The notes beneath the pieces were generated by a model, which worked only from the letters and a program-made list of their open reading frames with translations, had not been told where the DNA came from and did no database searches. Shown here one piece after another: positions 902 through 54,313 of a DNA stretch of 64,000 bases. A program made the translations under genes and the position numbers. Position 1 is the stretch's first letter. Each line of letters opens with the position of its first letter. The stretch is from the IMG/VR virus record IMGVR_UViG_3300045988_138358, one strand, 5' to 3'. This stretch comes from a virus (lineage: Duplodnaviria; Heunggongvirae; Uroviricota; Caudoviricetes).

Positions 902-994
902 TCTTCATCTCCTGGTTATTCGCCTATTGTCATCACTTTGTTATTTCGTCACTCAAAGAGAGAGTGAAATCACGGAACATTTACAATTCCCGTT

Positions 995-1153: not shown

Positions 1154-1178
1154 TGTGTCTCAGAAGTGGAGCAAGAAG

Positions 1179-14847: not shown

Positions 14848-14867
14848 GTTACGCAGCGGAGGCAGAA

Positions 14868-15260
14868 TTGAAAAGATTGGCTATTGCTTTACTGGCGTCT
14901 TTCCCTTTGATCGCGAGCGCCGGAAATTTACAAGTTAAGTGCGGTCGGTTTGATATAAAAATCTATCCAGATGCCATATTTCTGAATGGGAATAAGGTTG
15001 ATAACGCACACCGAAAAACTGAATCTGACGTAATGAGCTATGTGTTCCAGGAGTATGCGGAGATGGGGGGAACTTACACGCTGTACTCGCTGGATGTTCC
15101 TTCTCGCGGTGATATGACATTATCCCATCAATGGCAGAACGCCGATGGCGAAGCTCTGCGCGAGGTTAAAACAGAAAAATGTGGCACTTTCCATTCTTTT
15201 AAAGGGAAAGCGCCAAATGTTAAATCTGTGCTTGAAAAACAGCGCGCAGGTGAGCTTTAA
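14868..15260 (+). CDS. secreted protein, unknown function
   Basis: Classic signal peptide MKRLAIALLASFPLIASA. Confidence 0.55.
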   Translation: MKRLAIALLASFPLIASAGNLQVKCGRFDIKIYPDAIFLNGNKVDNAHRKTESDVMSYVFQEYAEMGGTYTLYSLDVPSRGDMTLSHQWQNADGEALREVKTEKCGTFHSFKGKAPNVKSVLEKQRAGEL

Positions 15261-16146
15261 ACACCTTTAACCACGGAGATGCCGTTCCCTGCACGATAGC
15301 GGCGGGGAACGGAATTCTCCATCAGGTCACGAATTACTCCCGCCTCATGTAGTTCCACTGTTTCCCAGTATCTGTTTGTCACCAATTACGCCCCTTTCCG
15401 CCAGGGGAAGGTATGAACGAGCTTCTGCTTCGGTTGCAGCCATGACGCAGATATACAGGTGTTTTTGGCAGGAATAGAAACGCCAGATAAATTCAGAATG
15501 AGTTGGGGTGGGGATAGTAGCGATATTGGCAGCCTCCTTTGACTAAGTTAAGGAGCTACCGCGTGAGGTTCCAATCCCGGCACCCGTTTTTCTAAGGTGC
15601 CGTAGAAATATACCCCACGATAAGGCCAGGGCGCAAAAGTCAGTATTTTATGCTTTGGCGGATTTCTTCCGGGCTTGCTTGCAGGCGTAGGCCATTGCTT
15701 TAGCTTTCACTTCATCCAGCTTCCCGGTGATCACTTCTTTTCCGAGAGTGACAAACCAGTCATAGCAACCGCCAGTGATGTTCTGGATTTGAAAGTTGAG
15801 GTAGCGAACGGTCATTTTGACACCCCCAGCGCGAGTAAAGAATGCAGATTATCGCGTGAGTGGCGGACAACGAGTGATGGGAAAAGACAGTAGCTGTTCA
15901 TAGTGTAGTGACTCCTTGCTTTCGGAGCCGCCTTCGACTGTTCCACGGTCTGGTGGCGGCGCAATAAAGGCTGGAACACCGTGAGTCAACGGGGGCTTTT
16001 CAGCCACCTATATTGCACCGCCATAGGTATAGCGGCGGCAATAATACGAAAAACTAAACAGTTTGTCTCAAAAAGTTGACCGGTGTGCCAATCGGTAGTG
16101 AATGTACATCGGAGAAATTTACAATTCAACTTAAAATGTTAGAAAA

Positions 16147-16725
16147 CTAATTTATCAATTCAATCGCCATCTGATACAACGTCATTTCATCGGCATTGTG
16201 CCGCATGAAATCTGCTTTTCCGCCTATTTTTCCATCAGCATGAACAGGGACCAGCCAGGGATATTGTTCTCGGACCTCGGCTGGCGCTGCGTACTGGTGG
16301 TGCCATTTACACAAAGGGAGGACATATTTATGCGCGTTCTCTGCCGTTCTCCCGAAGATATGGTGCAGGGATACCACTGGGCTATGTTGCCCGTGAATAT
16401 GGCAGGCAATGCAGGGGAGAGTACCGATAGCGGTCTGTATCCGGCGTTCATCGGCTGTGAGTGATCTGCCCTTCAGGCCGCGTGACGTGCGTGTTTTTTT
16501 GGGCGGAGCGGATACCGCTTTATCTTTTCTCCGCTGTTCATATTGCTTTGCTTTTTCAATTTTCTTTTGCCGATATTCAGGCGATGCGGCTTTTTCTCTC
16601 GCTCGCTGCTGCTGGCGTTGAGCTTGTTGAAGGCGCTTTGCCCTTTGTTCCTCTCGCCAGGCTGGGTCAGCCAATTTTTGCATGGCTTTTTGTCTCTGTT
16701 TCTCCCAATAACTCTGTTTCTGCAT
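16147..16725 (-). CDS. ref: HNH-type endonuclease, Ref-like (recombination enhancement function)
   Basis: 192 aa; basic N-terminus then HNH-like core (LPCIACHIHG...SLHHI...LPLCKWHH); size and operator-linked promoter match P1 Ref. Confidence 0.5.
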   Translation of the reverse strand: MQKQSYWEKQRQKAMQKLADPAWREEQRAKRLQQAQRQQQRAREKAASPEYRQKKIEKAKQYEQRRKDKAVSAPPKKTRTSRGLKGRSLTADERRIQTAIGTLPCIACHIHGQHSPVVSLHHIFGRTAENAHKYVLPLCKWHHQYAAPAEVREQYPWLVPVHADGKIGGKADFMRHNADEMTLYQMAIELIN

Positions 16726-22250: not shown

Positions 22251-22854
22251 CTATCAAGAACTGCGCGAGGCGGCGGAACAGGCAACGCAAGATGAATGGG
22301 TAGCATATATTTTGCCGGGTCATAACGGCATTTATCCTGCGCGCACATCTGAGGGTAGGCATTGCGGATACTTTATTGACTGGCCTGGCATTGATGGACA
22401 AAGGAATGCTGGTGCTAATGCCCGTTATATCGCTGCTATCCCACCAAAAGTTGCGTTGTCACTACTGGATGAAATTAAACGTCAGGAGGACTCAAATATT
22501 GATGCTATGTGCCGTATTGCAGAGCTTGAAACTAATATCGCGGCGCTGGTGGCAGAGAACGCCGGACTGAAACACGCAATGGCCGTAACTCTTGAGCATG
22601 TGTCGGTAACGGATGCAGGGCAGGCCGGAGTTGCTGCGATGATTATTAATGATGCCCTGCACCACAGCGAAACGCCAGCTACCGACGCTTTCATGGCGGA
22701 AGTGCGGGCGCAGGGGGTGGATATGGCTCGTAACGCGATGATTGATTTTGTTGATGGTGAAGTTGGGCCAAACAAGAACGTTCCGGGTCTGATTAGAGGC
22801 GCAGAGATATGCGTAAGTATTGCTGAACAGCTTCGCAAAGGAGGCAACCAGTGA
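22237..22854 (+). CDS. Ea22-like protein
   Basis: INYQELREAAEQAT N-terminus and [16 protein letters not shown] tail shared with paralogs. Confidence 0.6.
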   Translation: MSKINYQELREAAEQATQDEWVAYILPGHNGIYPARTSEGRHCGYFIDWPGIDGQRNAGANARYIAAIPPKVALSLLDEIKRQEDSNIDAMCRIAELETNIAALVAENAGLKHAMAVTLEHVSVTDAGQAGVAAMIINDALHHSETPATDAFMAEVRAQGVDMARNAMIDFVDGEVGPNKNVPGLIRGAEICVSIAEQLRKGGNQ

Positions 22855-23336
22855 GCGAAATTAATTACCAGGCACTGCGTGAGGCGGCGGAACGTGCAAC
22901 TCCAGCAATGGAACGCCTGTTAATGTTGCCAGCTGATGATGATTTGTTAAGTGAACAGGAACTTAAAGATTACGGTGTGGATATTGATGCGCTCAACGCC
23001 TTCAAATTTCTGATCGGACCAGAAACCGTGCTGGCGCTGCTGGATGAACGGGAAAGAAACCAGCAATACATAAAACGCCGCGATCAGGAGAACGAGGATA
23101 TTGCGCTAACGGTAGGGAAGCTGCGCGTTGAGCTTGAGGCAGAAAAACAGCGGGCAAAGGATCTGTTTATGGAAAATGCTCGGCTTAAGTCAGGTATAGC
23201 CGGTCTGATACACCTCGGTATTCGATATGCGGATGTTGAGGTCATGAAAATTGCTGGAGATGCCCAGCTTTCTACCCCATGCACTGACAGCATCATAAAC
23301 AGCATTGCAACAGGCATTCGCATCGAAGGAGAGTGA
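22851..23336 (+). CDS. Ea22-like protein
   Basis: INYQALREAAERAT N-terminus, same paralog family. Confidence 0.55.
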   Translation: MSEINYQALREAAERATPAMERLLMLPADDDLLSEQELKDYGVDIDALNAFKFLIGPETVLALLDERERNQQYIKRRDQENEDIALTVGKLRVELEAEKQRAKDLFMENARLKSGIAGLIHLGIRYADVEVMKIAGDAQLSTPCTDSIINSIATGIRIEGE

Positions 23337-23337
23337 C

Positions 23338-24111
23338 ATGACCACTTTAACCGACAAAGAACTGATTAAAGAAATCAAAGAGCGCATAGGCAGCTTGGAC
23401 GTTCGAGACAATATTGAGCGCCGTGCTTATGAAATTGCACTGGCATCGATGGAAGCAGATCCAGTTGCTTATATTTTCAAACATCCGGCCGGGAAATTAT
23501 TCTGGGCTTTAACGGATGAAAGCAATAAAGAGCAAGCGGACGTTATTCCTGTTTATGCCGCCCCTCCAGTACCAGTAGTACCTGCTGCATTACCTGAGAA
23601 CGACGATGATGACGGGCATGACATTGATTATCTTGAGCCATCTGAAGTTTACTCGCTTGGGCGAACAGCTGGCTGGAACGCCTGCCGTGCTGCCATGCTT
23701 CATGGTGCCGAACCTGTAAGCCAAACTTACAAGTTGCCTCCCCTGTCATCCAACGAAGTAAACGACGCGGCATGGAAATTACGCAACATGCTTACTGAAC
23801 ACGGTCCTCTTAATGGGCGTCAGTTCAACAATCTGAAAGGTTGCTTCTATGAGGCATTAAAGGTCGCAATGCGCAACTATCCGGTAACTCCGGATGGTTG
23901 GATAAGCTGTAGTGAGCGAATGCCGGATACCAAAACAGCCGTTCTTGTTGCCAAGGAGTTTGATAGGAAAGGTGACTGGCGAATGAAATGGGCGACTTAC
24001 ATCCCGGGGCATCCTGACGCTAATGATGGGTGGATCATTCCTGGGGCGTCGTGGAAACCGTCACACTGGATGCCGCTACCAGAACCGCCGCAGGAGGTTA
24101 ACCGTGGCTAA
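23338..24111 (+). CDS. DUF551-like protein
   Basis: C-terminal WISCSERMPD...WMPLPEPP typical of DUF551; start at internal Met with GAAGGAGAG site. Confidence 0.55.
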   Translation: MTTLTDKELIKEIKERIGSLDVRDNIERRAYEIALASMEADPVAYIFKHPAGKLFWALTDESNKEQADVIPVYAAPPVPVVPAALPENDDDDGHDIDYLEPSEVYSLGRTAGWNACRAAMLHGAEPVSQTYKLPPLSSNEVNDAAWKLRNMLTEHGPLNGRQFNNLKGCFYEALKVAMRNYPVTPDGWISCSERMPDTKTAVLVAKEFDRKGDWRMKWATYIPGHPDANDGWIIPGASWKPSHWMPLPEPPQEVNRG

Positions 24112-24385
24112 CCTTCAACTGGCAGTTAACGGTGAATATTTCGACCAGATGAAGTCTGGAGAGAAAACGGAAGAGTATCGCTTGTGTAATGACTACTGGA
24201 ATAAGCGAATTCTGTTCCGCGAGTATGACCGCCTGATTATCACAAAGGGATATCCGAAGCGCGATGATTCCAGCCGCAGAATAGACGTCCCGTATGACGG
24301 ATATGAAATCAAGACAATCACGCATCCCCACTTCGGCGATAAACCGGTAAAGGTTTACGCGATAAAGGTAAATATCAATGGCTAA
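24104..24385 (+). CDS. small ASCH/PUA-like protein (tentative)
   Basis: Probable GTG start after CAGGAGG; the ORF track extends upstream into the previous gene. Confidence 0.35.
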   Translation: MANLQLAVNGEYFDQMKSGEKTEEYRLCNDYWNKRILFREYDRLIITKGYPKRDDSSRRIDVPYDGYEIKTITHPHFGDKPVKVYAIKVNING

Positions 24386-24782
24386 ATTTCAAAGAAATAT
24401 TATTTTTCTGGCAATGTTATCTGCCTGTCATTTATCTCATGCATCGGTTATTGCTGCGGGAGCTGCGGCAACCGCTGTAATTAGCGCCTCATCCGCCAGC
24501 GAGCATGAGCAACGTACTGCAATCAATGCATCTGCCAATACCACCACGGTATCAGTAACACAAGAAAAGCCGAATATCGGCTTTGTTACTTGTGGCAAGC
24601 GATATGGTGAAATGGTTGGCTCTCTTGGTTGCGTAATGTGGCAAGACGACGACCGAACAGAAATTCCGTGGAACTCATGGCCTGGCTACATTCTTGGTAA
24701 GAAGCTGCCCACCAGCTATGAAGTAAATGCTATTTCGTTCGACCAATATAACAGTGTTGCAACGGTCTATTTCTCTTATTAA
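24378..24782 (+). CDS. secreted protein, unknown
   Basis: Signal-like N-terminus NIIFLAMLSACHLSHA. Confidence 0.45.
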   Translation: MAKFQRNIIFLAMLSACHLSHASVIAAGAAATAVISASSASEHEQRTAINASANTTTVSVTQEKPNIGFVTCGKRYGEMVGSLGCVMWQDDDRTEIPWNSWPGYILGKKLPTSYEVNAISFDQYNSVATVYFSY

Positions 24783-24794
24783 CACGGAGTAATT

Positions 24795-25088
24795 ATGTGG
24801 CGCGGTAATAATCATGGTGGAAGCCAGATGATACTTACCGAATATCAGCTCGACCACAAAACCAATAAATCACGCTCAGTATATTTGCTTCGGCACAATA
24901 GCCGCGTAAGGAATACCGTGCTGGAGCAAAATCTGACCGTTGAAATGGATAATTCGGGGAACTTCAAGCCAACAATTTCGCTTGATGATTTTCCGCGTGG
25001 TTTAAGCGAAAGAGAAGCCATGCTGAAATTAGCAGAATGGCTTCAGAGGTTAAGTATTGTTATTGAAGATAACTGGAGTCAACCATAA
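24795..25088 (+). CDS. hypothetical protein
   Basis: 97-aa ORF. Confidence 0.4.
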   Translation: MWRGNNHGGSQMILTEYQLDHKTNKSRSVYLLRHNSRVRNTVLEQNLTVEMDNSGNFKPTISLDDFPRGLSEREAMLKLAEWLQRLSIVIEDNWSQP

Positions 25089-25343
25089 TGAAAAACAGAA
25101 AGAAATTTTGGATTACTTTTTTGTTTGTATGCCTTTGCGGTTTATTTATTTTATTAGCTGGTGGTGTTAAATGGGGTACGGTGGGGTGTGGTTTTTGGAG
25201 CGGGGTTACTCTTTTCGCAGCCTGGCTTATCGCCAACTTTGAGTCAGGCGGAGGGTATTGGTAAGTGGTCTTATTCCCCACTTCATAACGGATATCACGC
25301 TCGTGATAACGGATATTCCAATTTTGATAACGGATAAGGCCAA

Positions 25344-25553
25344 ATGAAGCATTTTTTAAGGTTGGCATTTGTTCTGGCGCTATTTGATCCTCCGGCTGCA
25401 ATGGCTGGAGAACAGCAACATTGCACAAAAGAGAATGAACCCCCTTTCATCGTTATTCAATGCGATGACGGAACGGTGACTGTGGTTAATGTAAGAAATG
25501 ACCGTGTAGCTGTTTGCCGTAAAGGCGAACCATGCAAGGAAATAAAACTATGA
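25344..25553 (+). CDS. small secreted protein
   Basis: Signal peptide MKHFLRLAFVLALFDPPAAMA. Confidence 0.4.
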   Translation: MKHFLRLAFVLALFDPPAAMAGEQQHCTKENEPPFIVIQCDDGTVTVVNVRNDRVAVCRKGEPCKEIKL

Positions 25554-26308
25554 CAAGAATCACTAAAGAGCGTATTTCAGATATTATTTCCCGTATCGAA
25601 ATGTATGGTCACGGTGCTGGATATACGGCAGATGAAGTATTGGCACTTGCCCAAATGGCTTTGGCGGCTTGCAAAGATGATAAAAAAATGAAGCTTATCG
25701 ACTTGTTAGTGAAGGAGCTGCCTAAGTGCGGCGGGTGGCCTGATGGTATGATCGATTGTCGCCTGCTCAGTGCCAATTTAATGGCGCCATGCGCGACTTT
25801 TGCTTTTGGCTCAGACCACAAAAAAGACACGTTCTTTGGGCGCAATTTTTGTTGTGAGATTGAGCTTCCAATTGGTGACCTTGATAGCGATGAATACCTG
25901 TCAGTTGTCACTCGCGAACAATACGAATCAGCTCTCATAGCGTCGCAGAAAGTCGAGTTCAATGGTGATGAACTTGAAAGTAAGACTTACAGGTTGGATT
26001 TTGGGCAATGGCTGGAACAGCAACGCGGGAAAATCGATGTGGACTGTGGTTGTGTGTCCACTGAAACATTCATGCACTGGCTGCGGGTAGCTTACGAGGC
26101 TGGCAACCATCCGGATTTTCCGGATAGTTCCCAACAATCGCCCAAGAAAAGCGTAAAAACCACTCTGGAAAGAGGCTATCTTGAGGCCGCATTAAAGATT
26201 AAGCCTGGCCATACGCTAGGCGTCATTGATGCCATGTTGGTTCATGAAATGGCGAAGGCTTTATTGCCGCTGGTGGCTGATAAAATTCCGAATAAAGCCG
26301 ATATCTGA
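25550..26308 (+). CDS. hypothetical protein
   Basis: Start at internal Met (MTRITKER), 4-nt overlap with upstream stop. Confidence 0.45.
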   Translation: MTRITKERISDIISRIEMYGHGAGYTADEVLALAQMALAACKDDKKMKLIDLLVKELPKCGGWPDGMIDCRLLSANLMAPCATFAFGSDHKKDTFFGRNFCCEIELPIGDLDSDEYLSVVTREQYESALIASQKVEFNGDELESKTYRLDFGQWLEQQRGKIDVDCGCVSTETFMHWLRVAYEAGNHPDFPDSSQQSPKKSVKTTLERGYLEAALKIKPGHTLGVIDAMLVHEMAKALLPLVADKIPNKADI

Positions 26309-26347
26309 TCACCATGCTAAAATCCCCTCAATTCACAGAGGGGATTT

Positions 26348-26620
26348 TTGTATATGTTGCATAGAGTTTTATGGAAAAGCGTTATTGTCGGCGCGATACT
26401 GGCTATATCTGGGTGTGCAATGGTGCAATACAACGACGGTGAAAAGGTAAGCATACAGTCAGATGGTTGGTATGGCCTGGATAGCCTGCAAAAAACCGCA
26501 GATAAAGCCTGTCAGCAATATGGGAAGTCTAAAGCAGTATATCAGCATAGCGCGAACGCTAACCCTCATCTAGCGCCCGGTTCTGGTGTTCAGAATACCA
26601 TCTGGAAATGTGAGCCTTAA
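26348..26620 (+). CDS. small lipoprotein (putative)
   Basis: Signal peptide ending in lipobox-like LAISGC. Confidence 0.45.
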
Positions 26621-26622
26621 AT

Positions 26623-26874
26623 ATGAGCGACTGGAATATTGCAGCTAAAAGTCAGGAAGAACGGGATAAGGTTAACGTTGATCTGGCTGCCAGCGGTGTG
26701 GCGTACAAAGAGCGATTGAACATACCTGTCATAGCTGAACAGGTAGCCCGCGAGCAACCAGAGAATCTGCGCACCTATTTCATGGAACGGCTACGGCACT
26801 ACCGGCAGTTAAGCCTCCAGTTGCCAAAAGGGAGCGATCCGGTGTATCAGAACGAGGATGCACCAAAAAAATAG
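26623..26874 (+). CDS. hypothetical protein
   Basis: 83-aa ORF 3 nt after previous stop. Confidence 0.4.
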
Positions 26875-26959
26875 CGGCAAGATGGGGGAGAAATGTGATT
26901 AGCCCCCAGCGTGGCGCGCCTACAAACCCAGCTTTCACAAACTATGCCTTTTCAATGTA

Positions 26960-26997: not shown

Positions 26998-27387
26998 ATG
27001 GGCTTCCCTTCTCCTGCGGCGGATTATGCAGAGAGCCGCATTTCTCTTGATCAGCAACTAATCAGACATCCTTCCGCGACCTACTTCATGCGGGCGGCAG
27101 ACAGCCATCACCGTGAGGGAATATTGCAAGGTGCTTTGCTGGTGGTTGATTCCTCACTTACTCCGGTTGATGGTTCACTGCTTATATGCGCTATGGAGGG
27201 TGAATATCGCATAAAGAGATACAGGAAGTATCCGCGCCAGCACCTGGAGGATTTAAGCACCGGGAAGAAAGAGGCGTTACCAGTAGATGACGATGGATAC
27301 ACGGGCAGTAATGCTGTTTTTGGTGTGATCACTCATGTCATCAATGATGCCCGAAGTGGGGAGTTTGATTATAGACCTGTGATTTAA
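26998..27387 (+). CDS. humD: UmuD'-like protein (pre-processed form), HumD-like
   Basis: MGFPSPAADYAE... aligns with UmuD starting just after its autocleavage site; Ser and Lys of the S24 dyad appear retained; no umuC follows. Confidence 0.75.
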   Translation: MGFPSPAADYAESRISLDQQLIRHPSATYFMRAADSHHREGILQGALLVVDSSLTPVDGSLLICAMEGEYRIKRYRKYPRQHLEDLSTGKKEALPVDDDGYTGSNAVFGVITHVINDARSGEFDYRPVI

Positions 27388-27432
27388 GGCGCATAAAGAA
27401 GCCCGCCAGACCAGGCGGGCTTTTTGTTGATA

Positions 27433-28527
27433 TCATTCAATGATTTTTTCGGCTGTCAGCCAGCTAATTTCGTGCCTGTCTTTCGGCGGTTTTAGCATGT
27501 GAGCATATTCAGCGACATGCTCCCACGGAATTGTTTTTGCCCACTCAACGATAGCATTGTGATCTGCAGTGAAGAGTGGAATAGTGTGCGATTTCAACCA
27601 TTCTAATGTCGTGACGCCATGTTTTTTGGCGTGGTGCTGCGCATGATGCCGGGCTATCACTCGTAATGGCATTGTCCATTCACTACCATCAGGCATCGAA
27701 AAGCGCATTGTCTTCGGCATATCTGATTCAAGAACAGCCTCCCTAATACCAGGGAACTCACCAAGAATCATACGACGATAGTCATCACTATTTCGCCCGC
27801 CATACCTTTCGGCAAAATGATCAAGATATTCTTGGGTAATAAATGGTGAATCCTCCGCACTCAGCTTAATGGCTTTATATACACCACTCGGATTATCTTC
27901 AGCTAAAGCACGTCCATGATGTGAATCATAAAAAAAGCCTATTTCCTCTGGTGACGGAATTGAAGTGAGCAATATGCGTGAATCACCACTAGTCATGCTT
28001 GCCCACACAATGCTGTATGCCCGATCGCTGATATGTGCGGAATCCACAATAATGAATAAAAGATGGTCGGCGTAGTGACCTGCAATGCTATCTTCATAGT
28101 TAAGGCGGTAGTTACAAAAGCACATTCCCCAAAATTCATTGAACATCAGACCGCTATCACCGACCTTAAAATACTCAATGATAAAAGGTTGTTTTTTCAG
28201 CAATGCCTCCCAACATTGCCACACATATGCAACAATTCCTCTTTTGCAAACATTTGATTTTGGATAAACAATTACTGTCCGGGAATCAGGATACATAATC
28301 GTATAAAGGGTACTAATAACAGCAAGCACTTGCGGTCGTCCGATCCCATACGGAGTGGTGACAGTAGCTTTTGCATTATTGGGCTGTATAGCTTCAACAA
28401 TTTGTTGTTGCTGGTGGCTTAAATCAATATCAAACAATTCTTTTGCTGCCAGTACCCAATTGTCTTTATATTTCTCCACCAGCGACAGCCAGCGCGGATC
28501 TTTATAAATATTGCTCTTAGTCGCCAT
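27433..28527 (-). CDS. terminase large-subunit paralog with degenerate ATPase motifs and divergent C-terminus
   Basis: Aligns with PacB-like protein at 33675-35183 (HQQQQIVEAIQ, FYDSHHG...NP.G...I.L..E.SPF), but Walker A GTGKS is replaced by GIGRPQ and Walker B DE by DS; start at internal Met. Confidence 0.55.
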   Translation of the reverse strand: MATKSNIYKDPRWLSLVEKYKDNWVLAAKELFDIDLSHQQQQIVEAIQPNNAKATVTTPYGIGRPQVLAVISTLYTIMYPDSRTVIVYPKSNVCKRGIVAYVWQCWEALLKKQPFIIEYFKVGDSGLMFNEFWGMCFCNYRLNYEDSIAGHYADHLLFIIVDSAHISDRAYSIVWASMTSGDSRILLTSIPSPEEIGFFYDSHHGRALAEDNPSGVYKAIKLSAEDSPFITQEYLDHFAERYGGRNSDDYRRMILGEFPGIREAVLESDMPKTMRFSMPDGSEWTMPLRVIARHHAQHHAKKHGVTTLEWLKSHTIPLFTADHNAIVEWAKTIPWEHVAEYAHMLKPPKDRHEISWLTAEKIIE

Positions 28528-29284
28528 CTGCCACTTCCTTAACTTCTTCTTTGGCCTGTTCTGCAATCGCCGCACGGCATTTCGCCCTGGCCGTAGCGAT
28601 TGCTTCAGCACGCACATCATCAGGAATCGTTGACGTGATATACATATCCAGTTCTTCGGCGCGGAACACTGTTTGGTCCAGATATTCGCGTAGCATCCAG
28701 GTAAATTCGAAATCACACGCGATAATCTCTGCGCTACCTTCTGCACCATTTGGGAAATGAATAAAAGCCTGTTTAGCCAAACCGATAACACGACATGCGG
28801 TTGCCAAAACAGCGGCAACCAGGTTTACATTTTCACACGCTACGGGCTGATTAACGCCGGAGATTACTCCATTTAACTGTCGGTTATATGGAAGGTAGTT
28901 TGAGATGCGTTCTACGCGCCATGTGCCAGTCAGGCTGCCATTCTTAAAGATAATTGGTGTAACGGATAGCCCAAGCTCGCGTATAAGTCGTTGCGCTATA
29001 GCAGGATCATTAAACATGTCTAATGCTACACATTCGAAAGACTGTGCAAGGGTAAACAGTTCTTCCAGAGAGTAGTCTTTGCCCCTGGCGGTGATGTAAC
29101 GATGAACGCCGCTTTCTGCATCACTCCATATAGCTACGCCATGCTCTTCATTCAGCTCTTCATTAAAGCCGAGATACGTCATGATAGTACGTTCAATCGT
29201 GTCAAACGGCAGTGACATGTCGGCGTTAACAGCCACCAGCAGGCCATTACGCAAGCGGTATTGAATTGCTTTAGTATTTTCCAC
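28517..29284 (-). CDS. hypothetical protein
   Basis: 255-aa ORF in the dUTPase operon. Confidence 0.5.
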   Translation of the reverse strand: MENTKAIQYRLRNGLLVAVNADMSLPFDTIERTIMTYLGFNEELNEEHGVAIWSDAESGVHRYITARGKDYSLEELFTLAQSFECVALDMFNDPAIAQRLIRELGLSVTPIIFKNGSLTGTWRVERISNYLPYNRQLNGVISGVNQPVACENVNLVAAVLATACRVIGLAKQAFIHFPNGAEGSAEIIACDFEFTWMLREYLDQTVFRAEELDMYITSTIPDDVRAEAIATARAKCRAAIAEQAKEEVKEVADGD

Positions 29285-32364: not shown

Positions 32365-32565
32365 GAAATTTAGGAATTTTTTTCCTTTCCGCGCAGATGG
32401 GCAATGCATTGCTGGTGTGGGCTTTAAGTTATGCCTGGCAGTTTTTAAGCAGAATTTTCTAAATTGGATGATAAAAAAATGCATCTTGATCCTTTACTCA
32501 CCCTGTTATTCGGCATAGATTTGTCATAGTAATTTTATGTTAGAAAACTAAATCGAGTAGGAATA

Positions 32566-33603
32566 ATGAGTAAGAAGTCGATCGAGAAAGAGTACAAACG
32601 GTTCCTGCAAACCGCTGAACGGTGGAAAGAGCTGGTGGTCGCAAACTCTGTTTTCCATGATACCAGTTATTCCGGCGAGGAATTCCGCCATGTTGCACTA
32701 ACACATGATCAGAATGTGCTAGAAGAAGCTGAAAAGTGCCTCACAGAATGGAAAGCCTTTGTTGACTTGTGCCGTAACGCTGACGGCAAAGCGTCTAACA
32801 TTGTTGAGTCTGTATATTCTCCGATCCCATTCATTATCGAGGACACAAATCAAAGCACGCATATTGTTGTGCAAAGCGCGACCACCACCCGCTCATTTAC
32901 GCGCGAAAATCTGCTCAAAAAATATGATGCAATTATAAAGAAAAGCCTGAAAAACAAGATATTTTCGCAGATTGTTGGTGCACTTGAAGAAGAGCGCCGT
33001 TTTTTCGCATCAGAACCTGAAGGGGAAGTTTACCGGGCGCGCAAAGATGGATACACAGATGTAGTGCTTACAACAAACATTGAAGGCAGCAATGCTCTGT
33101 CACGATTCAGGGTAGGCGCACACGGAGCCTTAGTGTTCGCAAAACTTCCGAACACCACAGTGCCCGTTGTTAATAATGTCGGCGAACGTCGCAGCATTAC
33201 TATTTATTCTGGGGTTGAGTCGATACCTTGCGGCCTGCTTGGTGACTTTAGTCTCTATCGCGTTCGCGATCTGGAGAAACACCAACCAAGCTATGTTGCG
33301 AAGTCATACATCTTGCGAAACATCGACATCCGCAATGAGAGCTTAAAGAACAAATCAGCCAAAATGCTTGAGGAAGCCGATCCGGCTATTCGCCATATCA
33401 TTGAGCGTAAAATACAGACAGCACGCGAAGCGATGGCGAGACTGAATAAAATGGATCTGGAGTTGTTAGACGTAATGATGACATCCGGAGATGACCTGAC
33501 AGGCATAAAACTGACAGACGCGCGGAAAAGATACGGTAAAACCATAGAAGAACGTTACGGGTTCACTTTCTCCCAAACACAGCACGCCGCTAAACTCTGG
33601 TAA
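32566..33603 (+). CDS. hypothetical protein, candidate regulator
   Basis: 345 aa; an operator-like motif (TATGTTAGAAAACTAAAT) sits about 15 bp upstream of its ribosome-binding site. Confidence 0.45.
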   Translation: MSKKSIEKEYKRFLQTAERWKELVVANSVFHDTSYSGEEFRHVALTHDQNVLEEAEKCLTEWKAFVDLCRNADGKASNIVESVYSPIPFIIEDTNQSTHIVVQSATTTRSFTRENLLKKYDAIIKKSLKNKIFSQIVGALEEERRFFASEPEGEVYRARKDGYTDVVLTTNIEGSNALSRFRVGAHGALVFAKLPNTTVPVVNNVGERRSITIYSGVESIPCGLLGDFSLYRVRDLEKHQPSYVAKSYILRNIDIRNESLKNKSAKMLEEADPAIRHIIERKIQTAREAMARLNKMDLELLDVMMTSGDDLTGIKLTDARKRYGKTIEERYGFTFSQTQHAAKLW

Positions 33604-33674
33604 TCACAAGCCCCGCATTGCCGGGGCTTTATCCGGTGCGCCGTAAAACCCCGTCCTTCAGGGCGTGGAGGATG

Positions 33675-38465: not shown

Positions 38466-38541
38466 TGGTGGCCCCTACCGGACTTGAACCGGTGACCGTG
38501 CGATTATGAGTCGCCAGCTCTAACCACTGAGCTAAAGGGCC
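38466..38541 (-). tRNA. tRNA-Ile (anticodon CAT, ileX-like; Met not excluded)
   Basis: Reverse complement folds as a canonical cloverleaf with anticodon loop CTCATAA and encoded CCA; very close to E. coli ileX as recalled. Confidence 0.8.
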
Positions 38542-38953
38542 AGATTACTGTTAATTCCGCTTACGCTTTTTGCCAGAACCGCGTAAGGCTTTTGCCGCTT
38601 GCTCGATCCCATATGCAACCACCAGCAGAAATAAAAATGTCCAACCAGGGTTCTTATCGGCAAAGGCCCAAAAATCCATCACTTGCAGCTACCTTTTAAG
38701 ACAAAACGCCATTGCTGTTAGATTGCGGTGCCTGGTGCCTCCAGGTGACGTTAACCAGTTAACAATTAACGCCGGGATGTTTGATTTAACCACTAAGGAG
38801 GATTGTTTTAACTGTTCCGCGTGCGCTTAGCCGCATTCACCGCAATGGTAAGAGCACTTGGCTGGCTGGGCGGCGATGACGCCTGTACGCATTTGGTGAT
38901 CCGGTTCTGCTTCCGGCATTCGCTTAATTAGCCAAATACTCTTAACGTTGCGC

Positions 38954-39040
38954 TGGCGGAGAGTAATGGAATCGAACCATCATCGCTTGCGCAATGGGAC
39001 GGTTTTCAAGACCGCTTGAGCACCATGCTCCCTACTCTCC
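38954..39040 (-). tRNA. class II tRNA, probably Ser (anticodon TGA), atypical D-arm
   Basis: 87 nt; 7-bp acceptor stem, anticodon loop CTTGAAA, long variable arm, T-arm GATGG-TTCGATT-CCATT, G73, CCA; D-arm does not fold canonically. Confidence 0.45.
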
Positions 39041-39185
39041 GGCCGTTGTGGTGGCCGGTACTGAATCTCCGGCATACGGTGCAGCCAATTAGGACTACGG
39101 ACGATCACCGCTCGCGAAAGGGAAGATTTGCGGCCGCATTTCCCTAACATCCAAGAAAGCTATCGCATCAGTCTGCGAATCCACC

Positions 39186-39277
39186 ACAACGTTGAGAACA
39201 CTGGTTGTCACGCTGCAACGCAACATTTATTCGTAGATTGGGATATGACCCCGTTACGTCAGTGTTCTCAACGTTGT
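39186..39277. repeat. perfect 18-bp inverted repeat with 56-nt loop
   Basis: ACAACGTTGAGAACACTG at 39186-39203 and its exact reverse complement at 39260-39277, in the non-coding tRNA region. Confidence 0.6.
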
Positions 39278-39420
39278 AGTACCGGTTACGGTTCCGGCCA
39301 GGCCTCTTCCTCAACGGGGTATTCTCCATACGGACTACCGTTTATTGGTCGTTCCTGCGGTTTATGTTGTGAAGCCAGATGCTTATCTTCTGGTTGCTTC
39401 AAAGAGCTGCACTTCATCAC

Positions 39421-39500
39421 AACGGTAAGGGTACTTCGTAGGGATTCGAACCCTCTGCCAAGCACGGCGATCTCCGACGTCGCAAAATACCCTTACCTGT
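39421..39500 (-). pseudogene. tRNA-like remnant
   Basis: GGGTTCGAATCCC T-arm-like element enclosed by a 10-bp helix (GGTAAGGGTA/TACCCTTACC); no canonical cloverleaf can be drawn. Confidence 0.25.
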
Positions 39501-39505
39501 TGTGT

Positions 39506-39581
39506 TGGTGCCGATTAACGGACTCGAACCGCTGACATCCTGCTTACAAGGCAGGCGCTCTACCAACTGAGCTAAACCGGC
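39506..39581 (-). tRNA. tRNA-Thr (anticodon TGT)
   Basis: Canonical cloverleaf, anticodon loop CTTGTAA, T-loop TTCGAGT, CCA encoded. Confidence 0.85.
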
Positions 39582-39583
39582 AT

Positions 39584-39660
39584 TGGCGATGGTGGGTGGA
39601 TTCGAACCACCGACCGACAGCTTAGAAGGCTGCTGCTCTATCCTACTGAGCTACACCATC
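39584..39660 (-). tRNA. tRNA-Arg (anticodon TCT)
   Basis: Canonical cloverleaf, anticodon loop CTTCTAA, T-loop TTCGAAT, CCA encoded; 2 nt from tRNA-Thr. Confidence 0.8.
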
Positions 39661-51575: not shown

Positions 51576-51804
51576 AAAAAGCCCCGGCCTGGCCGGGGCA
51601 TCACGCTTCAAGTCACGATCCAATCATTACCGACTATATCAGCCGTCGATAAATCAACTTCCCGGATCTGGAGTCCATTAATACAAAACCATCCGGTAGT
51701 AGAGTAATTATCAGGCCAGGCCCATACACCAACACTCCATGCTTTACGGCGGCACACTTCAGCCTGTTCTTCCCTGATTTTTTTTACCGCCTGCATGATG
51801 TCCA

Positions 51805-52512
51805 TCACTCACCTCCCCAACCGATCACCTGGAATTGCCCCATTTTTGGGTGATACCAGCGTTTTCCTCGGTGTTCAGCCTCCGACATCATCCGGTTAAA
51901 AGCATTCATGAAGGGAGATAAGGCCACGATGGATCGACGCGACAATACCCCCTCTGGAGTTAAAAACTCATGTGTATCGGTGGGAATCCGGTAAGCGTTG
52001 ACCAGGTTGCGACATTTGGCTTTGGTCAGGCCGCATTTTGCCGCCAGCTGGCGGTAGCCAATGTAGCCTTCCGGCATATTGCCTTTCTTGATTTGCTCAA
52101 CGGTTTCAGCGACCTGGCTAACCTTTGACTCAACAGCATGAAGCCGCTTTTGCTGCTGAACTGCATTTGCAGCCATTGCGGCGATCATCTCTATTTCGGT
52201 CAACGGCTGGCGTACTTGTTCTTCCAGTTCGCGCCAGCGGTCCACCAGCCGGGCGGTGAATTCCGGAGAGAGCTGCGCAACGACAATAATGCTGTCTCGT
52301 TTGCCTTGCTCGCCTTCGAAGACGTAAGCCTCGACACTACGGCGTAGTCCTAAGTTATTGATTTTTTCGAAAACCTGCAATGCAGGAAGTTGAATAACTC
52401 CAGATTTAGCCAGGCGCTCTATTGATATTTTTACGTTATCTGGACGACTTCCCACCAGCTCCGCGATCTCAATGCTGGTCATTGATGGCTTTTCAAGAAT
52501 GCAGATATCCAT
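51805..52512 (-). CDS. Rha/antirepressor-like regulatory protein
   Basis: N-terminal TSIEIAELVGSRPDNVKISIERL resembles Rha-family N-termini; start at internal Met. Confidence 0.55.
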   Translation of the reverse strand: MDICILEKPSMTSIEIAELVGSRPDNVKISIERLAKSGVIQLPALQVFEKINNLGLRRSVEAYVFEGEQGKRDSIIVVAQLSPEFTARLVDRWRELEEQVRQPLTEIEMIAAMAANAVQQQKRLHAVESKVSQVAETVEQIKKGNMPEGYIGYRQLAAKCGLTKAKCRNLVNAYRIPTDTHEFLTPEGVLSRRSIVALSPFMNAFNRMMSEAEHRGKRWYHPKMGQFQVIGWGGE

Positions 52513-52934
52513 CAGTGTGCCTCCGCAATTCCGGGATTGGTAATATTGCGATACCAAGGATTAGTGTTTGGTTGTGATGAAGTAGAGAAACGGCCAGTCA
52601 GGACGCCATGTTGATCAGGGATCAGAGAACGGGCTTCTTTTTCAGTTGCGGCAATTGCGAAGTGATCACAGTGTTTTTGCAGGGAGTGGAAACGCCAGAT
52701 AAATTCCGGGCGCGAGCAAGGATTGGCATTAACCATAGTTACGGCCTCATTCGTAGGTTTAACAACCTGCGCCCCGCTGCTAAACGGGTGGCAGGACGTG
52801 ACGGGGTTAGCAGACTGGCACGAATGAAACCAGCAGGCCGAAGCCTCCCCATCACGCCCCACCATAATTCGGGCGTAACGTGGTTTTACGGACACAAAAA
52901 TACCGCAATATCGGATATCTGCGGTTGTCCGCAT
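52512..52934 (-). CDS. Icd/Ash-like small protein (tentative)
   Basis: Overlaps the start of the Rha/Ant-like gene as icd does in P1; the 5' part may be structured leader RNA rather than coding. Confidence 0.3.
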   Translation of the reverse strand: MRTTADIRYCGIFVSVKPRYARIMVGRDGEASACWFHSCQSANPVTSCHPFSSGAQVVKPTNEAVTMVNANPCSRPEFIWRFHSLQKHCDHFAIAATEKEARSLIPDQHGVLTGRFSTSSQPNTNPWYRNITNPGIAEAH

Positions 52935-53066
52935 TCGTATTCAGGCTGCTAAACCCGGTCGCAGAATTTGCTACGACGACATGAATATAAGCCTGAAAAC
53001 ATGGAAGATCAACTAAAAATTTCAGCAATGGATGACTTCAGTCGATGATGCAGATCATACATTCCG

Positions 53067-53097
53067 ATTTAGAAACAGCAAATTAATTTTCTAACAC
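53067..53097. promoter_or_regulatory. operator pair and promoter for the icd/ant-like operon
   Basis: On the minus strand: TGTGTTAGAAAAT, 16 bp, TTCTAAAT, then TGTATGAT (extended -10-like). Confidence 0.5.
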
Positions 53098-53150
53098 AAA
53101 TTATCGGGCGAGCATTTTCCGATCATTGGGATGCTTTGTAGACACACAGG

Positions 53151-54113
53151 TCATCCCCTAAATCCCGCAGGGATTGACCAATCCTCACGGTCAAATTCAG
53201 ACCGATAGCCACGCTGTTTCATCAGGTCAAAGGCTTCACCAATGGTTGCACACCCCTGGGAGCCAGAATAATCCATTGAGAAATCCAGGGCACTGGATTG
53301 TTTAGGCTTATTCACTGCGGTAGCGGCACTACGTATCCATGCAAATTTTTTTGCCAGCTTTTCAGCGGTACGATACAGAGCCTGCCGTTTTGTGTGCCCC
53401 TCGTCTGAACGACGCTTTGCAGCTCTCGCTTTTGCCGCCGCCAGGCAGTGGTTGGTATGTTCTTCCCTGATTGCTGTTTTTTTATCCAGTACCCCGTGAT
53501 CCGTTTGAGAACTATCTGCTGGTGAAGCCTTTGGCTGAACCGCGCATGATCTTTCTCTTCTTTTGGCTATAGAGTGACTCTTATTTTCTATTGGCTGTTC
53601 ATTTTGAACATGGGGGGACTTGTTCAATTTGAACAGGGGGTTCCCAGTTTCAAAAAAATAACGAACCTTTGAAATCAACTGCTTAACCAGTTTTGTGGCG
53701 TTGGCAAATTTGATGCCCTGCTTACCCCCTATCTCCATTGCTACATGAATGAAGTGGAGAAATTGTGTCGTAAACCGATATACGTTACACACCTGGGCAT
53801 TGTTATTCGCTACCTGATGTTGCTTAACAAGCATTCCGCACTTCGTCGCTTCAGCAAATGCCCGGCGTACAGTAGAAATACTGCGTCCTGTAATCTCGGA
53901 CATATCAGCATATGAGCGACGGATCATGTATTCATCGGTAGACCCTGCCAGGTTGGCGAACTCGGCAATAATGGCGCTATGTGAAGGAGAAAGAAGACCA
54001 CTATGACGAGCAAAAAAACTCAACTGATGACCTTTGATTTTTTTGTGGTATTCAGTGTTGTTTTTATACTCAGAAGTGTTGAAAGTTACTGAAACTGAAT
54101 TTAAAATATTCAT
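53151..54113 (-). CDS. repL: RepL-like replication protein (putative)
   Basis: HTH segment DMSEITGRSISTVRRAFAEATKCGMLV; internal repeats and an operator-linked promoter parallel the P1 lytic replicon. Confidence 0.4.
   Translation of the reverse strand: MNILNSVSVTFNTSEYKNNTEYHKKIKGHQLSFFARHSGLLSPSHSAIIAEFANLAGSTDEYMIRRSYADMSEITGRSISTVRRAFAEATKCGMLVKQHQVANNNAQVCNVYRFTTQFLHFIHVAMEIGGKQGIKFANATKLVKQLISKVRYFFETGNPLFKLNKSPHVQNEQPIENKSHSIAKRRERSCAVQPKASPADSSQTDHGVLDKKTAIREEHTNHCLAAAKARAAKRRSDEGHTKRQALYRTAEKLAKKFAWIRSAATAVNKPKQSSALDFSMDYSGSQGCATIGEAFDLMKQRGYRSEFDREDWSIPAGFRG
53604..53640. repeat. TTGAACA / TGTTCAA repeats with G-runs inside the repL-like gene (candidate origin)
   Basis: TTGAACATGGGGGGAC-TTGTTCAA-TTTGAACAGGGGG. 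Confidence 0.35.
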
Positions 54114-54207: not shown

Positions 54208-54313
54208 TGGCAGTCGCTACCGGAGCAGTGACCGCGATCCTACTCGATCACATCGGACAGGATCAACAGTGTATATAAATACACTATGTTAGAAATTTAA
54301 TTTCATGCAGCGG

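What the first reader, a model, noticed from the sequence alone, without database searches (positions are those of the whole stretch)
52870..53100. Immunity-I-like module: operator-controlled promoter, structured leader, icd-like ORF overlapping an antirepressor-like gene
Behind the operator pair at about 53067-53097 the minus-strand leader contains hairpins (for example CCGCAGATATC / GATATTGCGG near 52905-52930) and two copies of GTTTAGCAGC. It leads into a small ORF overlapping the start of an Rha/Ant-like gene, which mirrors the P1 c4 antisense RNA - icd - ant arrangement.
Basis: inference. Interest (0 to 1): 0.45.

Follow-up and report, generated by a model that had tools for sequence, protein, structure and literature searches.

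The report
P1-type c4 antisense immunity operon

Summary
The window is a D6-like E. coli plasmid prophage: 95.4% identical to phage D6 across this locus and 100% identical to three E. coli plasmids.

On the minus strand the order is:
- an operator-like palindrome (53069-53094)
- a P1 P51b-type promoter (52984-53012)
- an IsrK/seqA-type leader carrying targets a1 (52946-52952) and b1 (52932-52938)
- a 77-nt c4 RNA (52787-52863; Rfam C4, 71.9 bits)
- targets a2 and b2, with b2 abutting the icd ribosome-binding site
- icd (52512-52736), whose stop overlaps the ant start
- a Roi/Rha-type antirepressor (51805-52512)

It corresponds to the IsrK Rho-independent terminator, and it covaries across Enterobacteria and Betaproteobacteria. 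The 140-aa ORF is spurious.

The c4 specificity here (a as in P7, b = ACGAAUG) differs from P1, P7 and D6. It is common in databases, for example in phage vB_EcoM-813R1.

The one mildly new idea is that c4 pairing at b1 switches a near-isoenergetic antiterminator/terminator pair. That would be autoregulation like the P4 t1 terminator. It is untested.

The parts
53069..53094 (.). Operator-like perfect inverted repeat TTAGAAA-N12-TTTCTAA. It is probably the binding site of the D6-type C1 repressor, analogous to P1 Op51.
   Evidence: One search found the inverted repeat. The motif recurs 5 times against 0.31 expected, and its half-site 14 times against 2.7 expected. The other copies map upstream of the lpa, ref and repL homologues, where P1 has C1 operators. 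The binding protein is inferred.
53054..53081 (-). Weak candidate upstream promoter (TTGCTG, 16-nt spacer, TATGAT). Its -35 lies inside the operator, a position analogous to P1 P51a.
   Evidence: Read from the sequence. The consensus scan did not report it, so it is only a candidate.
52984..53012 (-). Sigma-70 promoter TTGATC-17-TATATT, homologous to P1 P51b (P1c4).
   Evidence: The scan matches 9 of 12 positions. It aligns with the annotated P1 P1c4 -35 and -10.
52896..52977 (-). IsrK/seqA-type leader RNA: hairpin P1 (52958-52977), hairpin P2 with a1 in its loop (52942-52958), single-stranded b1, then the terminator hairpin and U-run.
   Evidence: Rfam isrK matches model positions 1-77 of 77 at 46.5 bits against a gathering score of 50, E 5.9e-9. 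Rfam c4-a1b1 matches 52938-52990 at 52.2 bits against 46.7.
52946..52952 (-). Target a1 (UUAGCAG), complementary to a' of c4.
52932..52938 (-). Target b1 (ACGAAUG), complementary to the b' loop of c4. Its last two bases are also the first two of the antiterminator hairpin.
52920..52933 (-). Candidate antiterminator hairpin A (UGCGG-ACAA-CCGCA). It shares the CCGCA strand with the terminator.
   Evidence: Its energy is -7.0 kcal/mol, equal to the terminator. It is 93% paired across 27 relatives, but the covariation is weak and it breaks where helix O covaries.
52893..52924 (-).
   Evidence: It aligns to the IsrK terminator. A hairpin followed by a T-run is present in 48 of 50 unique leaders. 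The stem has compensatory changes (AU 11, CG 9, UA 2, GC 1 at the closing pair).
52889..52931 (-). Outer helix O: CGGACA (52926-52931) pairs with UGUCCG (52889-52894) and encloses the terminator hairpin and U-run. It can form only in read-through RNA.
   Evidence: Four of its 5 pairs change on both sides and 99.3% of cells are paired. For O and T together, 0 of 500 shuffles reach the observed values.
52787..52863 (-). c4 antisense RNA, 77 nt, with b' loop UCAUUCGU (52820-52827) and single-stranded a' CUGCUAA (52807-52813).
   Evidence: Rfam C4 scores 71.9 bits against a gathering score of 45. It is colinear with the annotated 77-nt P1 c4 and folds at -45.7 kcal/mol into a tRNA-like shape with a 3' ACC tail.
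52777..52783 (-).
52745..52754 (-). Target b2 (ACGAAUGA, 52747-52754) overlapping the icd Shine-Dalgarno GAGG (52745-52748).
   Evidence: The cognate b'/b2 duplex is -11.7 kcal/mol.
52512..52736 (-). icd, 74 codons plus stop.
   Evidence: It is 97% identical to D6 Icd, 59% to P1 Icd and 57% to P7 Icd. NCBIfam NF033153 scores 40.4 bits against a cut-off of 25. phrog_1426 gives E 3e-39.
51805..52512 (-). ant: a Roi/Rha-type antirepressor of 235 aa. Its ATG shares one base with the icd stop (UGAUG).
   Evidence: phrog_63 'anti-repressor Ant' gives E 2e-47. D6 orf18 is annotated 'similar to HK97 Roi'. There is no significant similarity to P1 Ant1 (E 0.13).
51608..51808 (-). A 66-aa ORF whose start overlaps the ant stop. 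It is the last gene of the operon, the homologue of D6 orf17, and has no known function.
   Evidence: phrog_7385 gives E 6e-49.

Best explanation
This is the immI (secondary immunity) operon of a D6-like, P1-family plasmid prophage.

A sigma-70 promoter at 52984-53012 starts a minus-strand transcript near 52977. Its first ~82 nt form an IsrK/seqA-type leader. The leader has two hairpins, the second of which shows target a1 in its loop.

Transcripts that read through carry the 77-nt c4 RNA (52863-52787). By homology with P1, c4 is excised like a tRNA by RNase P. After c4 come targets a2 and b2, then icd, ant and a 66-aa ORF. These three genes are linked by overlapping stop and start codons.

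Mature c4 pairs through its loop b' and its single-stranded a' with b2 and a2. Target b2 abuts and overlaps the icd Shine-Dalgarno, so icd is not translated. As shown for P1, Rho then ends transcription inside icd and no antirepressor is made. The C1-type repressor therefore stays active, which maintains lysogeny and gives superinfection immunity. The specificity of that immunity is set by the a and b sequences. Here a is the P7 type and b is ACGAAUG.

The upstream a1/b1 copy acts as a decoy for c4, as shown for the homologous IsrK RNA of Gifsy-1. I think it also probably acts as a c4 sensor. Pairing at b1 removes two base pairs from a small antiterminator hairpin, which would favour the terminator and limit further c4, icd and ant transcription. 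This is the behaviour reported for terminator t1 of phage P4.

What is shown here: the sequence elements, their homology, their complementarity and their covariation. What is inferred from P1, P4 and Gifsy-1: processing, Rho termination, protein functions and the c4 dependence of the terminator.
For: - Rfam C4 (71.9 bits) and c4-a1b1 (52.2 bits) both exceed their gathering scores.
- Rfam isrK matches full length immediately upstream of C4. The same tandem occurs in P1, P7, D6 and distant loci.
- The locus is 95.4% identical to phage D6, where icd and ant are annotated. It is 86-88% identical to the c4-icd region of P1-family phages (86.1% to reference P1, 87.2% to P7), where a1, b1, c4, a2 and b2 are annotated.
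- Three-way complementarity holds in this window: b1 = rc(b') = b2 and a1 = rc(a') = a2. It also holds in 77 of 78 complete related loci, across 6 b-types and 2 a-types.
- Cognate duplexes are -11.7 kcal/mol (b) and -9.3 (a). Non-cognate b duplexes are -6.6 or weaker.
- Icd and Ant are assigned to their families.
- Terminator helix T and outer helix O are 98.9% paired, with 6 pairs changed on both sides; 0 of 500 shuffles reach this.
- Helices A and T are isoenergetic at -7.0 kcal/mol. Blocking b1 flips the minimum-energy fold from A to T in the window and in all 16 relatives where A was the minimum.
- The operator motif recurs at the positions where P1 has C1 operators.
- Literature: the IsrK terminator gives a short sRNA plus read-through mRNA, and IsrK in trans activates the antirepressor (PMC4825925). 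IsrK and C4 are recognised as the equivalents of P4 seqA and CI (PMC3632133; PMC10111431). A D6-like ImmI region with c4, icd and an antirepressor is described in PMC6799933.
Against: - Nothing here shows transcription, processing or regulation. All functional steps rest on homology.
- The antirepressor is not a P1 Ant1/2 homologue, so its target, presumably the D6-type C1, is assumed.
- The isrK match (46.5 bits) is just under the family gathering score of 50.
- The antiterminator hairpin A has weak covariation and breaks in 4 of 27 sequences where helix O covaries. In 11 of 27 relatives, P1 among them, the terminator is already the minimum-energy fold without c4. The c4-sensing step is therefore a hypothesis.
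- The simple terminator scan did not flag the hairpin on the minus strand, because the stem is bulged and the loop long.
Confidence: 0.9

Rival explanations
1. The reader's hairpin plus U-run is a constitutive, partial Rho-independent terminator. It sets a fixed ratio of short leader RNA (an IsrK-like decoy for c4) to read-through c4-icd-ant RNA, and c4 has no effect on termination.
For: The homologous IsrK terminator is described as giving partial read-through (PMC4825925). In 11 of 27 relatives the terminator is the minimum-energy fold without any help. Hairpin A is only weakly supported.
Against: A and T are isoenergetic and mutually exclusive, and b1 overlaps A by two bases in all 27 aligned sequences. 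From memory, P4 t1 in the equivalent position needs CI RNA and seqA (Briani et al. 2000, not re-read here).
Confidence: 0.4
2. The hairpin with its enclosing helix O is mainly a processing or stability element of the c4 precursor, for example an RNase E or Hfq site in the U-rich internal loop that sets up RNase P cleavage. It terminates little transcription.
For: Helix O, which can form only after read-through, covaries more strongly than any other helix in the leader (4 of 5 pairs). P1 c4 is known to be made by processing of a longer transcript (my knowledge of Citron & Schuster 1992 and Hartmann et al. 1995).
Against: A GC-rich stem directly followed by 6-8 U is kept from E. coli phages to Betaproteobacteria, and it aligns to an experimentally defined terminator.
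Confidence: 0.15
3. The 140-aa ORF at 52512-52934 is a real protein gene and the RNA features are incidental.
For: The ORF is open in this window.
Against: The frame is closed by stop codons in D6, P1 and P7. P1 has a 1-nt deletion inside it. Variation in the region is RNA-type, compensatory in three places at once. Rfam C4 scores 71.9 bits.
Confidence: 0.02

Closest known systems
immI operon of phages P1 and P7 (P51a/b, Op51, a1 b1, c4, a2 b2, icd, ant1/ant2)
   Same: The element order is the same. The P51b-type promoter is homologous, as are the a1/b1 leader, the 77-nt c4, the a2/b2 targets with b2 at the icd ribosome-binding site, and icd. The stop of icd overlaps the start of the antirepressor gene.
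   Different: The b specificity (ACGAAUG) is neither P1 (GUUAGUG) nor P7 (GAUUGUG), while a is the P7 type. The antirepressor is Roi/Rha-like, not Ant1/Ant2. The operator is a different palindromic motif, and the P1 C1 consensus has no hit in 64 kb. repL lies upstream of the operon rather than downstream, and there is no kilA or sim.
immI-like region of phage D6 and D6-like plasmid prophages (orf17-orf20; pYU39_89)
   Same: The region is 95.4% identical over 2.4 kb with the same gene order: repL, leader, c4, icd, Roi-like ant, orf17. The presence of c4, icd and an antirepressor in D6-like elements is already published (PMC6799933).
   Different: D6 carries a = P1 type and b = ACUUACG, so this element is predicted to be heteroimmune to D6 at immI. 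The c4 cassette here is 99.6% identical to that of the P1-like phage vB_EcoM-813R1, which indicates modular exchange.
isrK-orf45-anrP locus of Salmonella prophage Gifsy-1
   Same: The leader matches the Rfam isrK model end to end, terminator included. In both, a short upstream ORF is translationally coupled to an antirepressor through an overlapping stop and start. In Gifsy-1, a stable ~80-nt RNA is processed from the read-through transcript downstream of the leader (PMC4825925).
   Different: In Gifsy-1 the emphasis is on the short leader RNA as an activator in trans, and the c4-like part is treated as coding (orf45). Here the c4 part is a clear P1-type c4 and icd is a separate gene. The match is 3.5 bits below the isrK gathering score.
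Immunity system of satellite phage P4 (seqA, CI RNA, seqC; terminators t1, t4, timm)
   Same: An immunity RNA processed from the transcript it controls, with one target upstream (seqA, equivalent to a1/b1 and IsrK) and one downstream (seqC, equivalent to a2/b2). The equivalence is stated in PMC3632133 and PMC10111431. A Rho-independent terminator lies between the promoter and the RNA gene.
   Different: P4 CI acts mainly by causing premature termination, whereas P1-type c4 acts by blocking icd translation with Rho termination as the consequence. The c4 dependence of the leader terminator is documented for P4 (from my memory of Briani et al. 2000) but not for P1 or D6.
sar antisense RNA and ant of phage P22
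   Same: A small antisense RNA holds antirepressor synthesis down (PMC12197685).
   Different: sar is a true cis-antisense RNA transcribed from the opposite strand. c4 is made from the same strand and the same promoter as its target and pairs through two short, separate sites.

Membership tests
P1-type immI operon (c4-icd-ant) | A c4 RNA with the conserved tRNA-like fold | tested here: met
   Rfam RF01695 scores 71.9 bits against a gathering score of 45 at 52784-52869. The RNA is colinear with the annotated 77-nt P1 c4 and folds at -45.7 kcal/mol with a free 3' ACC.
P1-type immI operon (c4-icd-ant) | a' and b' of c4 are complementary to a2 and b2 downstream on the same strand, with b2 at the icd ribosome-binding site | tested here: met
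   a' CUGCUAA pairs with a2 UUAGCAG, and b' UCAUUCGU pairs with b2 ACGAAUGA, which overlaps the SD GAGG. The duplexes are -9.3 and -11.7 kcal/mol.
P1-type immI operon (c4-icd-ant) | A second target pair a1/b1 upstream of c4 in a two-hairpin leader | tested here: met
   Rfam RF03163 scores 52.2 bits against a gathering score of 46.7 at 52938-52990. a1 and b1 are identical to a2 and b2.
P1-type immI operon (c4-icd-ant) | c4 and its target are transcribed from one promoter (P51b) | tested here: inconclusive
   The promoter TTGATC-17-TATATT aligns with the annotated P1 P1c4/P51b. No transcript data are available.
P1-type immI operon (c4-icd-ant) | An icd homologue directly followed by, and translationally coupled to, the antirepressor gene | tested here: met
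   NF033153 scores 40.4 bits against a cut-off of 25. Icd is 59% identical to P1 Icd. The stop and start overlap as UGAUG at 52510-52514.
P1-type immI operon (c4-icd-ant) | An antirepressor homologous to P1 Ant1/Ant2 | tested here: not met
   BLASTP against P1 Ant1 gives E 0.13. The protein belongs to phrog_63, the Roi/Rha type. Its role as an antirepressor is inferred from the family name and its position.
P1-type immI operon (c4-icd-ant) | A C1 operator (Op51) upstream of the operon | tested here: inconclusive
   The P1 consensus ATTGCTCTAATAAATTT is absent from the window at up to 3 mismatches. A different, significantly recurrent palindrome occupies the equivalent place and also sits upstream of lpa, ref and repL. 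The binding protein is untested.
P1-type immI operon (c4-icd-ant) | c4 matured by RNase P, and Rho-dependent termination in icd when c4 blocks translation | not testable with these tools
   Known for P1 from the literature (my knowledge of Citron & Schuster 1992, Biere et al. 1992 and Hartmann et al. 1995; these papers are not held in the library).
IsrK / seqA-type leader sRNA | A match to the Rfam isrK covariance model, including its terminator | tested here: inconclusive
   The match at 52896-52977 covers model positions 1-77 of 77 with E 5.9e-9, but scores 46.5 bits against a gathering score of 50. Relatives range from 35.1 bits (P1) to 51.3 bits (L106).
IsrK / seqA-type leader sRNA | A short RNA ending at the terminator that coexists with the read-through transcript | not testable with these tools
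   Shown for Gifsy-1 IsrK (PMC4825925). No expression data exist for this element.
P4-type antisense-dependent leader terminator (t1) | A Rho-independent terminator lies between the promoter and the immunity-RNA gene, next to the upstream target site | tested here: met
   The hairpin 52903-52924 plus U-run 52893-52902 begins 7 nt after b1 ends (b1 52932-52938), and the antiterminator hairpin A (52920-52933) bridges that gap, sharing 2 nt with b1. It is conserved and covaries in 27 diverse leaders.
P4-type antisense-dependent leader terminator (t1) | Termination is enhanced by the antisense RNA pairing with the upstream target | not testable with these tools
   The only support is thermodynamic. 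A and T are isoenergetic, and blocking b1 switches the minimum-energy fold to T.

The most novel reading that the evidence does not exclude
In P1/D6-type immI operons, the conserved hairpin and U-run between b1 and c4 may be a c4-sensing attenuator. Nascent leader RNA would first fold the small antiterminator (UGCGG/CCGCA). Pairing of mature c4 with b1, which shares two bases with that stem, would release CCGCA to form the terminator. The c4 level would then feed back on synthesis of c4, icd and ant, and would set how much short IsrK-like decoy RNA is made. The a and b sites would also form a combinatorial immunity code: 5 b-types by 2 a-types, with all ten combinations seen among 124 loci.
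Probability: 0.35. Interest if true: 0.35.

Novelty: already known. Interest (0 to 1): 0.2.

Why it matters
The locus decides whether this plasmid prophage stays quiescent, and which related phages it excludes. The a/b sequences predict that it is heteroimmune at immI to P1, P7 and D6, and that it shares immunity with phages such as vB_EcoM-813R1. For annotation, it shows that the c4 RNA and its IsrK-like leader are missed in the public records of these plasmids; only icd is named there. It also shows that a 140-aa ORF call across c4 would be an artefact. If the attenuator reading is confirmed, the RNA-dependent terminator known from satellite P4 would extend to the P1 family. That would give the long-unexplained a1/b1 sites a concrete role.

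Tried and rejected
- The P1 C1 operator consensus gave 0 hits at up to 3 mismatches in 64 kb. The operator here is therefore not P1-type, and I used the recurrent palindrome instead.
- The consensus terminator scan reported only plus-strand artefacts at 52912-52933 and missed the minus-strand hairpin, because its stem is bulged and its loop exceeds 8 nt. I judged the hairpin by homology and covariation instead.
- The same scan did not report the upstream TTGCTG/TATGAT promoter, so I keep it only as a weak candidate.
- Pfam gave nothing for Icd and only sub-threshold Rha for Ant. PHROGs and NCBIfam resolved both.
- The primary papers are not held: Gilcrease & Casjens 2018, Lobocka 2004, Citron & Schuster 1992 and Heinrich 1994. 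Statements about RNase P processing, Rho termination and P4 t1 therefore rest on my memory and on secondary sources.
- I rejected the 140-aa ORF as coding.
- I rejected the idea that the hairpin belongs to c4, because c4 starts 40 nt downstream of it.
- I tested antiterminator A for covariation. The result is inconclusive: its variable pair is also constrained by the b specificity, and the helix breaks where O covaries.
- I looked for a second immI like that of D6 (orf82/83). The window has only a divergent c4-like cassette without icd or ant.
Full report
**What the window is.** The 2.4 kb around the finding is 95.4% identical to phage D6, the E. coli plasmid prophage related to P1. D6 annotates there, on the minus strand, repL, an Icd-like protein, an "anti-repressor Ant, similar to HK97 Roi" and orf17. 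The 471-bp regulatory stretch 52690-53160 is 100% identical to three E. coli plasmids of 92-94 kb and more than 98% identical to about fifteen more. BLAST of the whole window against D6 shows colinearity over most of the 64 kb. The element is therefore a D6-like phage-plasmid that is already in public databases.

**Checking the observation.**
- The arms CCGCAGATATC and GATATTGCGG are at 52924-52914 and 52912-52903 on the minus strand, followed by TATTTTTGTG.
- GTTTAGCAGC occurs exactly twice in the window, at 52945-52954 and 52776-52785, against 0.13 expected.
- The "operator pair" is a perfect inverted repeat TTAGAAA-N12-TTTCTAA at 53069-53094.
- The small ORF is icd (ATG 52736). Its stop (52514-52512) shares one base with the ATG of the next gene.

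**What the parts are.** A gathering-threshold Rfam scan of the whole window found C4 antisense RNA at 52784-52869 (71.9 bits against a gathering score of 45) and the c4-a1b1 target motif at 52938-52990 (52.2 bits against 46.7), both on the minus strand.

Alignment with D6, P1 and P7, using the detailed P1 annotation, places every P1 immI element:
- The P51b-type promoter is TTGATC-17-TATATT at 53012-52984, which the promoter scan also reported.
- Target a1 is at 52952-52946 and b1 at 52938-52932.
- The 77-nt c4 is at 52863-52787 and is colinear with annotated P1 c4.
- Target a2 is at 52783-52777.
- Target b2 is at 52754-52747 and overlaps the icd Shine-Dalgarno GAGG.

Icd is 97% identical to D6 Icd, 59% to P1 Icd and 57% to P7 Icd, and passes NCBIfam phage_ICD_like. 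The next gene falls in PHROG 63, "anti-repressor Ant" (E 2e-47), but has no significant similarity to P1 Ant1 (E 0.13). Part of it is about 90% identical to roi genes of lambdoid phages.

The 140-aa ORF that runs across c4 (52512-52934) is not conserved. In D6, P1 and P7 the same frame has stop codons 11-14 codons before the icd ATG.

**Specificity.** Positions that differ among the four phages fall in three places at once and stay complementary.

| Phage | b site | a site |
|---|---|---|
| This window | ACGAAUG | UUAGCAG |
| D6 | ACUUACG | UUGACAG |
| P1 | GUUAGUG | UUGACAG |
| P7 | GAUUGUG | UUAGCAG |

I fetched 120 IMG/VR loci sharing the c4 core and parsed them.
- In 77 of 78 complete loci, b1 = rc(b') = b2 and a1 = rc(a') = a2.
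- There are seven b-types and two a-types. The five commoner b-types occur with both a-types.
- The window's combination accounts for about 12 of 124 loci.
- Cognate b duplexes are about -11 to -12 kcal/mol and non-cognate ones are -6.6 or weaker. The window shares only its a site with P7.
- The same cassette, from the transcription start to the icd start, is 99.6% identical in the P1-like phage vB_EcoM-813R1.

This immunity allele is thus a mobile module shared between P1-like and D6-like backbones. The segment shared with P1-like phages is 52625-52997.

It is not part of c4. A permissive Rfam scan of 52650-53160 gave a full-length match (model positions 1-77 of 77) to isrK at 52896-52977 (46.5 bits against a gathering score of 50, E 5.9e-9). 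The same isrK-then-C4 tandem is found in D6, P1, P7 and distant loci, with one locus above the gathering score.

IsrK of Salmonella prophage Gifsy-1 is a sRNA that ends at exactly this Rho-independent terminator.
- Part of the transcripts read through into a short ORF coupled to an antirepressor.
- An ~80-nt stable RNA is processed from the read-through.
- IsrK supplied in trans activates antirepressor translation (PMC4825925).

That IsrK and C4 correspond to seqA and CI RNA of satellite P4, and that P1 and P7 use a structurally similar system, is already stated in the literature (PMC3632133; PMC10111431). Weinberg et al. described the a1/b1 two-hairpin motif and cited the older proposal that a1/b1 compete with a2/b2 for c4.

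**Conservation of the hairpin.** A degenerate c4 pattern retrieved 18 further loci from one-genome-per-species contigs, mostly Betaproteobacteria. All have the same layout: promoter, two hairpins, b1, GCGGAC-AA-[CCGCx loop xGCGG]-U-run-GUCCG, then c4.

I aligned 27 diverse leaders and counted pairs.
- The terminator stem T and an outer helix O (CGGAC with GUCCG, enclosing the hairpin and U-run) are 98.9% paired.
- Six pairs change on both sides. No shuffle out of 500, and no slid register, comes close.
- A third pairing, A (UGCGG/CCGCA, 52933-52920), shares its 3' strand with T and its first two bases with b1. It is 93% paired, but its covariation is weak and it breaks in the sequences where O covaries.

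Energetically, A and T are both -7.0 kcal/mol in the window. Up to the U-run, the minimum-energy fold contains A rather than T in the window and in 16 of 27 leaders. Forbidding pairing of b1, as c4 binding would, switches every one of these to T. Once the 3' strand of O is transcribed, the minimum-energy fold is T plus O.

**Operator.** The P1 C1 operator consensus has no match in the window. The palindrome at 53069-53094 recurs 5 times against 0.31 expected, and its half-site 14 times against 2.7 expected. Mapped onto the D6 annotation, the copies lie upstream of the lpa, ref and repL homologues and of immI. P1 has C1 operators at those positions (repL and c4; lpa and ref from my knowledge). 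The repressor is inferred, however, and the promoter that the operator overlaps (TTGCTG-16-TATGAT) is weak. The strong, conserved promoter lies 57 bp downstream of the operator.

**Mechanism.** The best-supported mechanism is the P1 immI mechanism.
- c4 is excised from the leader of its own operon and pairs with a2/b2.
- This blocks the icd ribosome-binding site.
- It thereby, through Rho in P1, prevents synthesis of the antirepressor.

The leader produces an IsrK-like short RNA that can titrate c4. I consider it plausible (about 0.35-0.4) that c4 pairing at b1 also raises termination at the leader terminator. This is reported for P4 terminator t1, which requires CI RNA and seqA and autoregulates CI (Briani et al. 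2000, from memory, not re-read). None of these functional steps can be tested with sequence tools.

**Verdict.** The system is a known kind, and this particular locus is essentially the published D6 immI with a different but common c4 allele. Interest is low. The residual novelty lies in the untested attenuator idea and in the combinatorial a by b specificity.

Noticed in passing
window 15648-16151 (- strand): A second, divergent c4-like RNA lies at 15949-16028 (Rfam C4 40.2 bits, below the gathering score of 45; E 2.4e-5). It has its own matching a2 (UGGAACA) and b2 (GAGUCA, on the SD AAGGAG). After it come a 29-aa ORF and a 55-aa ORF coupled through ATGA. Upstream are a promoter-like site and an operator-like TTAGTTTTCTAA. 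There is no a1/b1 or isrK leader and no icd or ant, whereas D6 has a second icd-ant pair at the equivalent place.
   Followed up: partly
window 6310, 16776, 20872, 37017, 53069 (palindromes); 14 half-sites including 54289-54301: The motif TTAGAAAAyTAAT, often as the palindrome TTAGAAA-N12-TTTCTAA, is strongly over-represented. It sits upstream of the homologues of hrdC/dmt, ref, pdcB, lpa, immI and repL. It is probably the operator set of the D6-type C1 repressor. The P1 operator consensus is absent.
   Followed up: partly
L044 (IMGVR_UViG_2565956613_000015), about 120-370 nt from the contig end: This is the only discordant locus of 78. Its c4, a1, b1 and a2 are of the window's type (b = ACGAAT), but b2 is the P1 type (GTTAGT). 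It appears to be a recombinant whose own c4 should not be able to cover the icd ribosome-binding site.
   Followed up: no
L004-L123 (IMG/VR loci with the c4 core): Five b-types occur with both a-types, so all ten combinations are seen, even though the sites are interleaved (a1 b1 b' a' a2 b2). Reassortment would need several crossovers or repeated parallel 2-nt changes at three sites.
   Followed up: partly
window 52625-52997 versus flanks: Only this 373-bp cassette, from the -10 region to mid-icd, is shared with P1-like phages at 86-93%. The ant part (about 52220-52485) is instead about 90% identical to roi genes of lambdoid and Stx phages. The operon is therefore a three-way mosaic.
   Followed up: partly
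window 32455-33632: The C1 repressor homologue region is only 84% identical to D6, while most of the rest of the backbone matches at about 90-97%. This may mean a diverged primary immunity as well.
   Followed up: no
window 1-2039, 14275-15572, 22257-26902, 27379-28544: These stretches have no BLAST match to the fetched D6 segments (D6 1-33000 and 58000-91159), so they may be cargo that differs from D6; window 1-2039 would fall in the unfetched part of D6, so its lack of a match is uninformative. Two secreted or lipoprotein-like ORFs at 14224-15260 replace the second icd-ant pair of D6.
   Followed up: no
window 38469-39660 (- strand): Three tRNA genes (Rfam 64.7-72.9 bits), as in D6.
   Followed up: no
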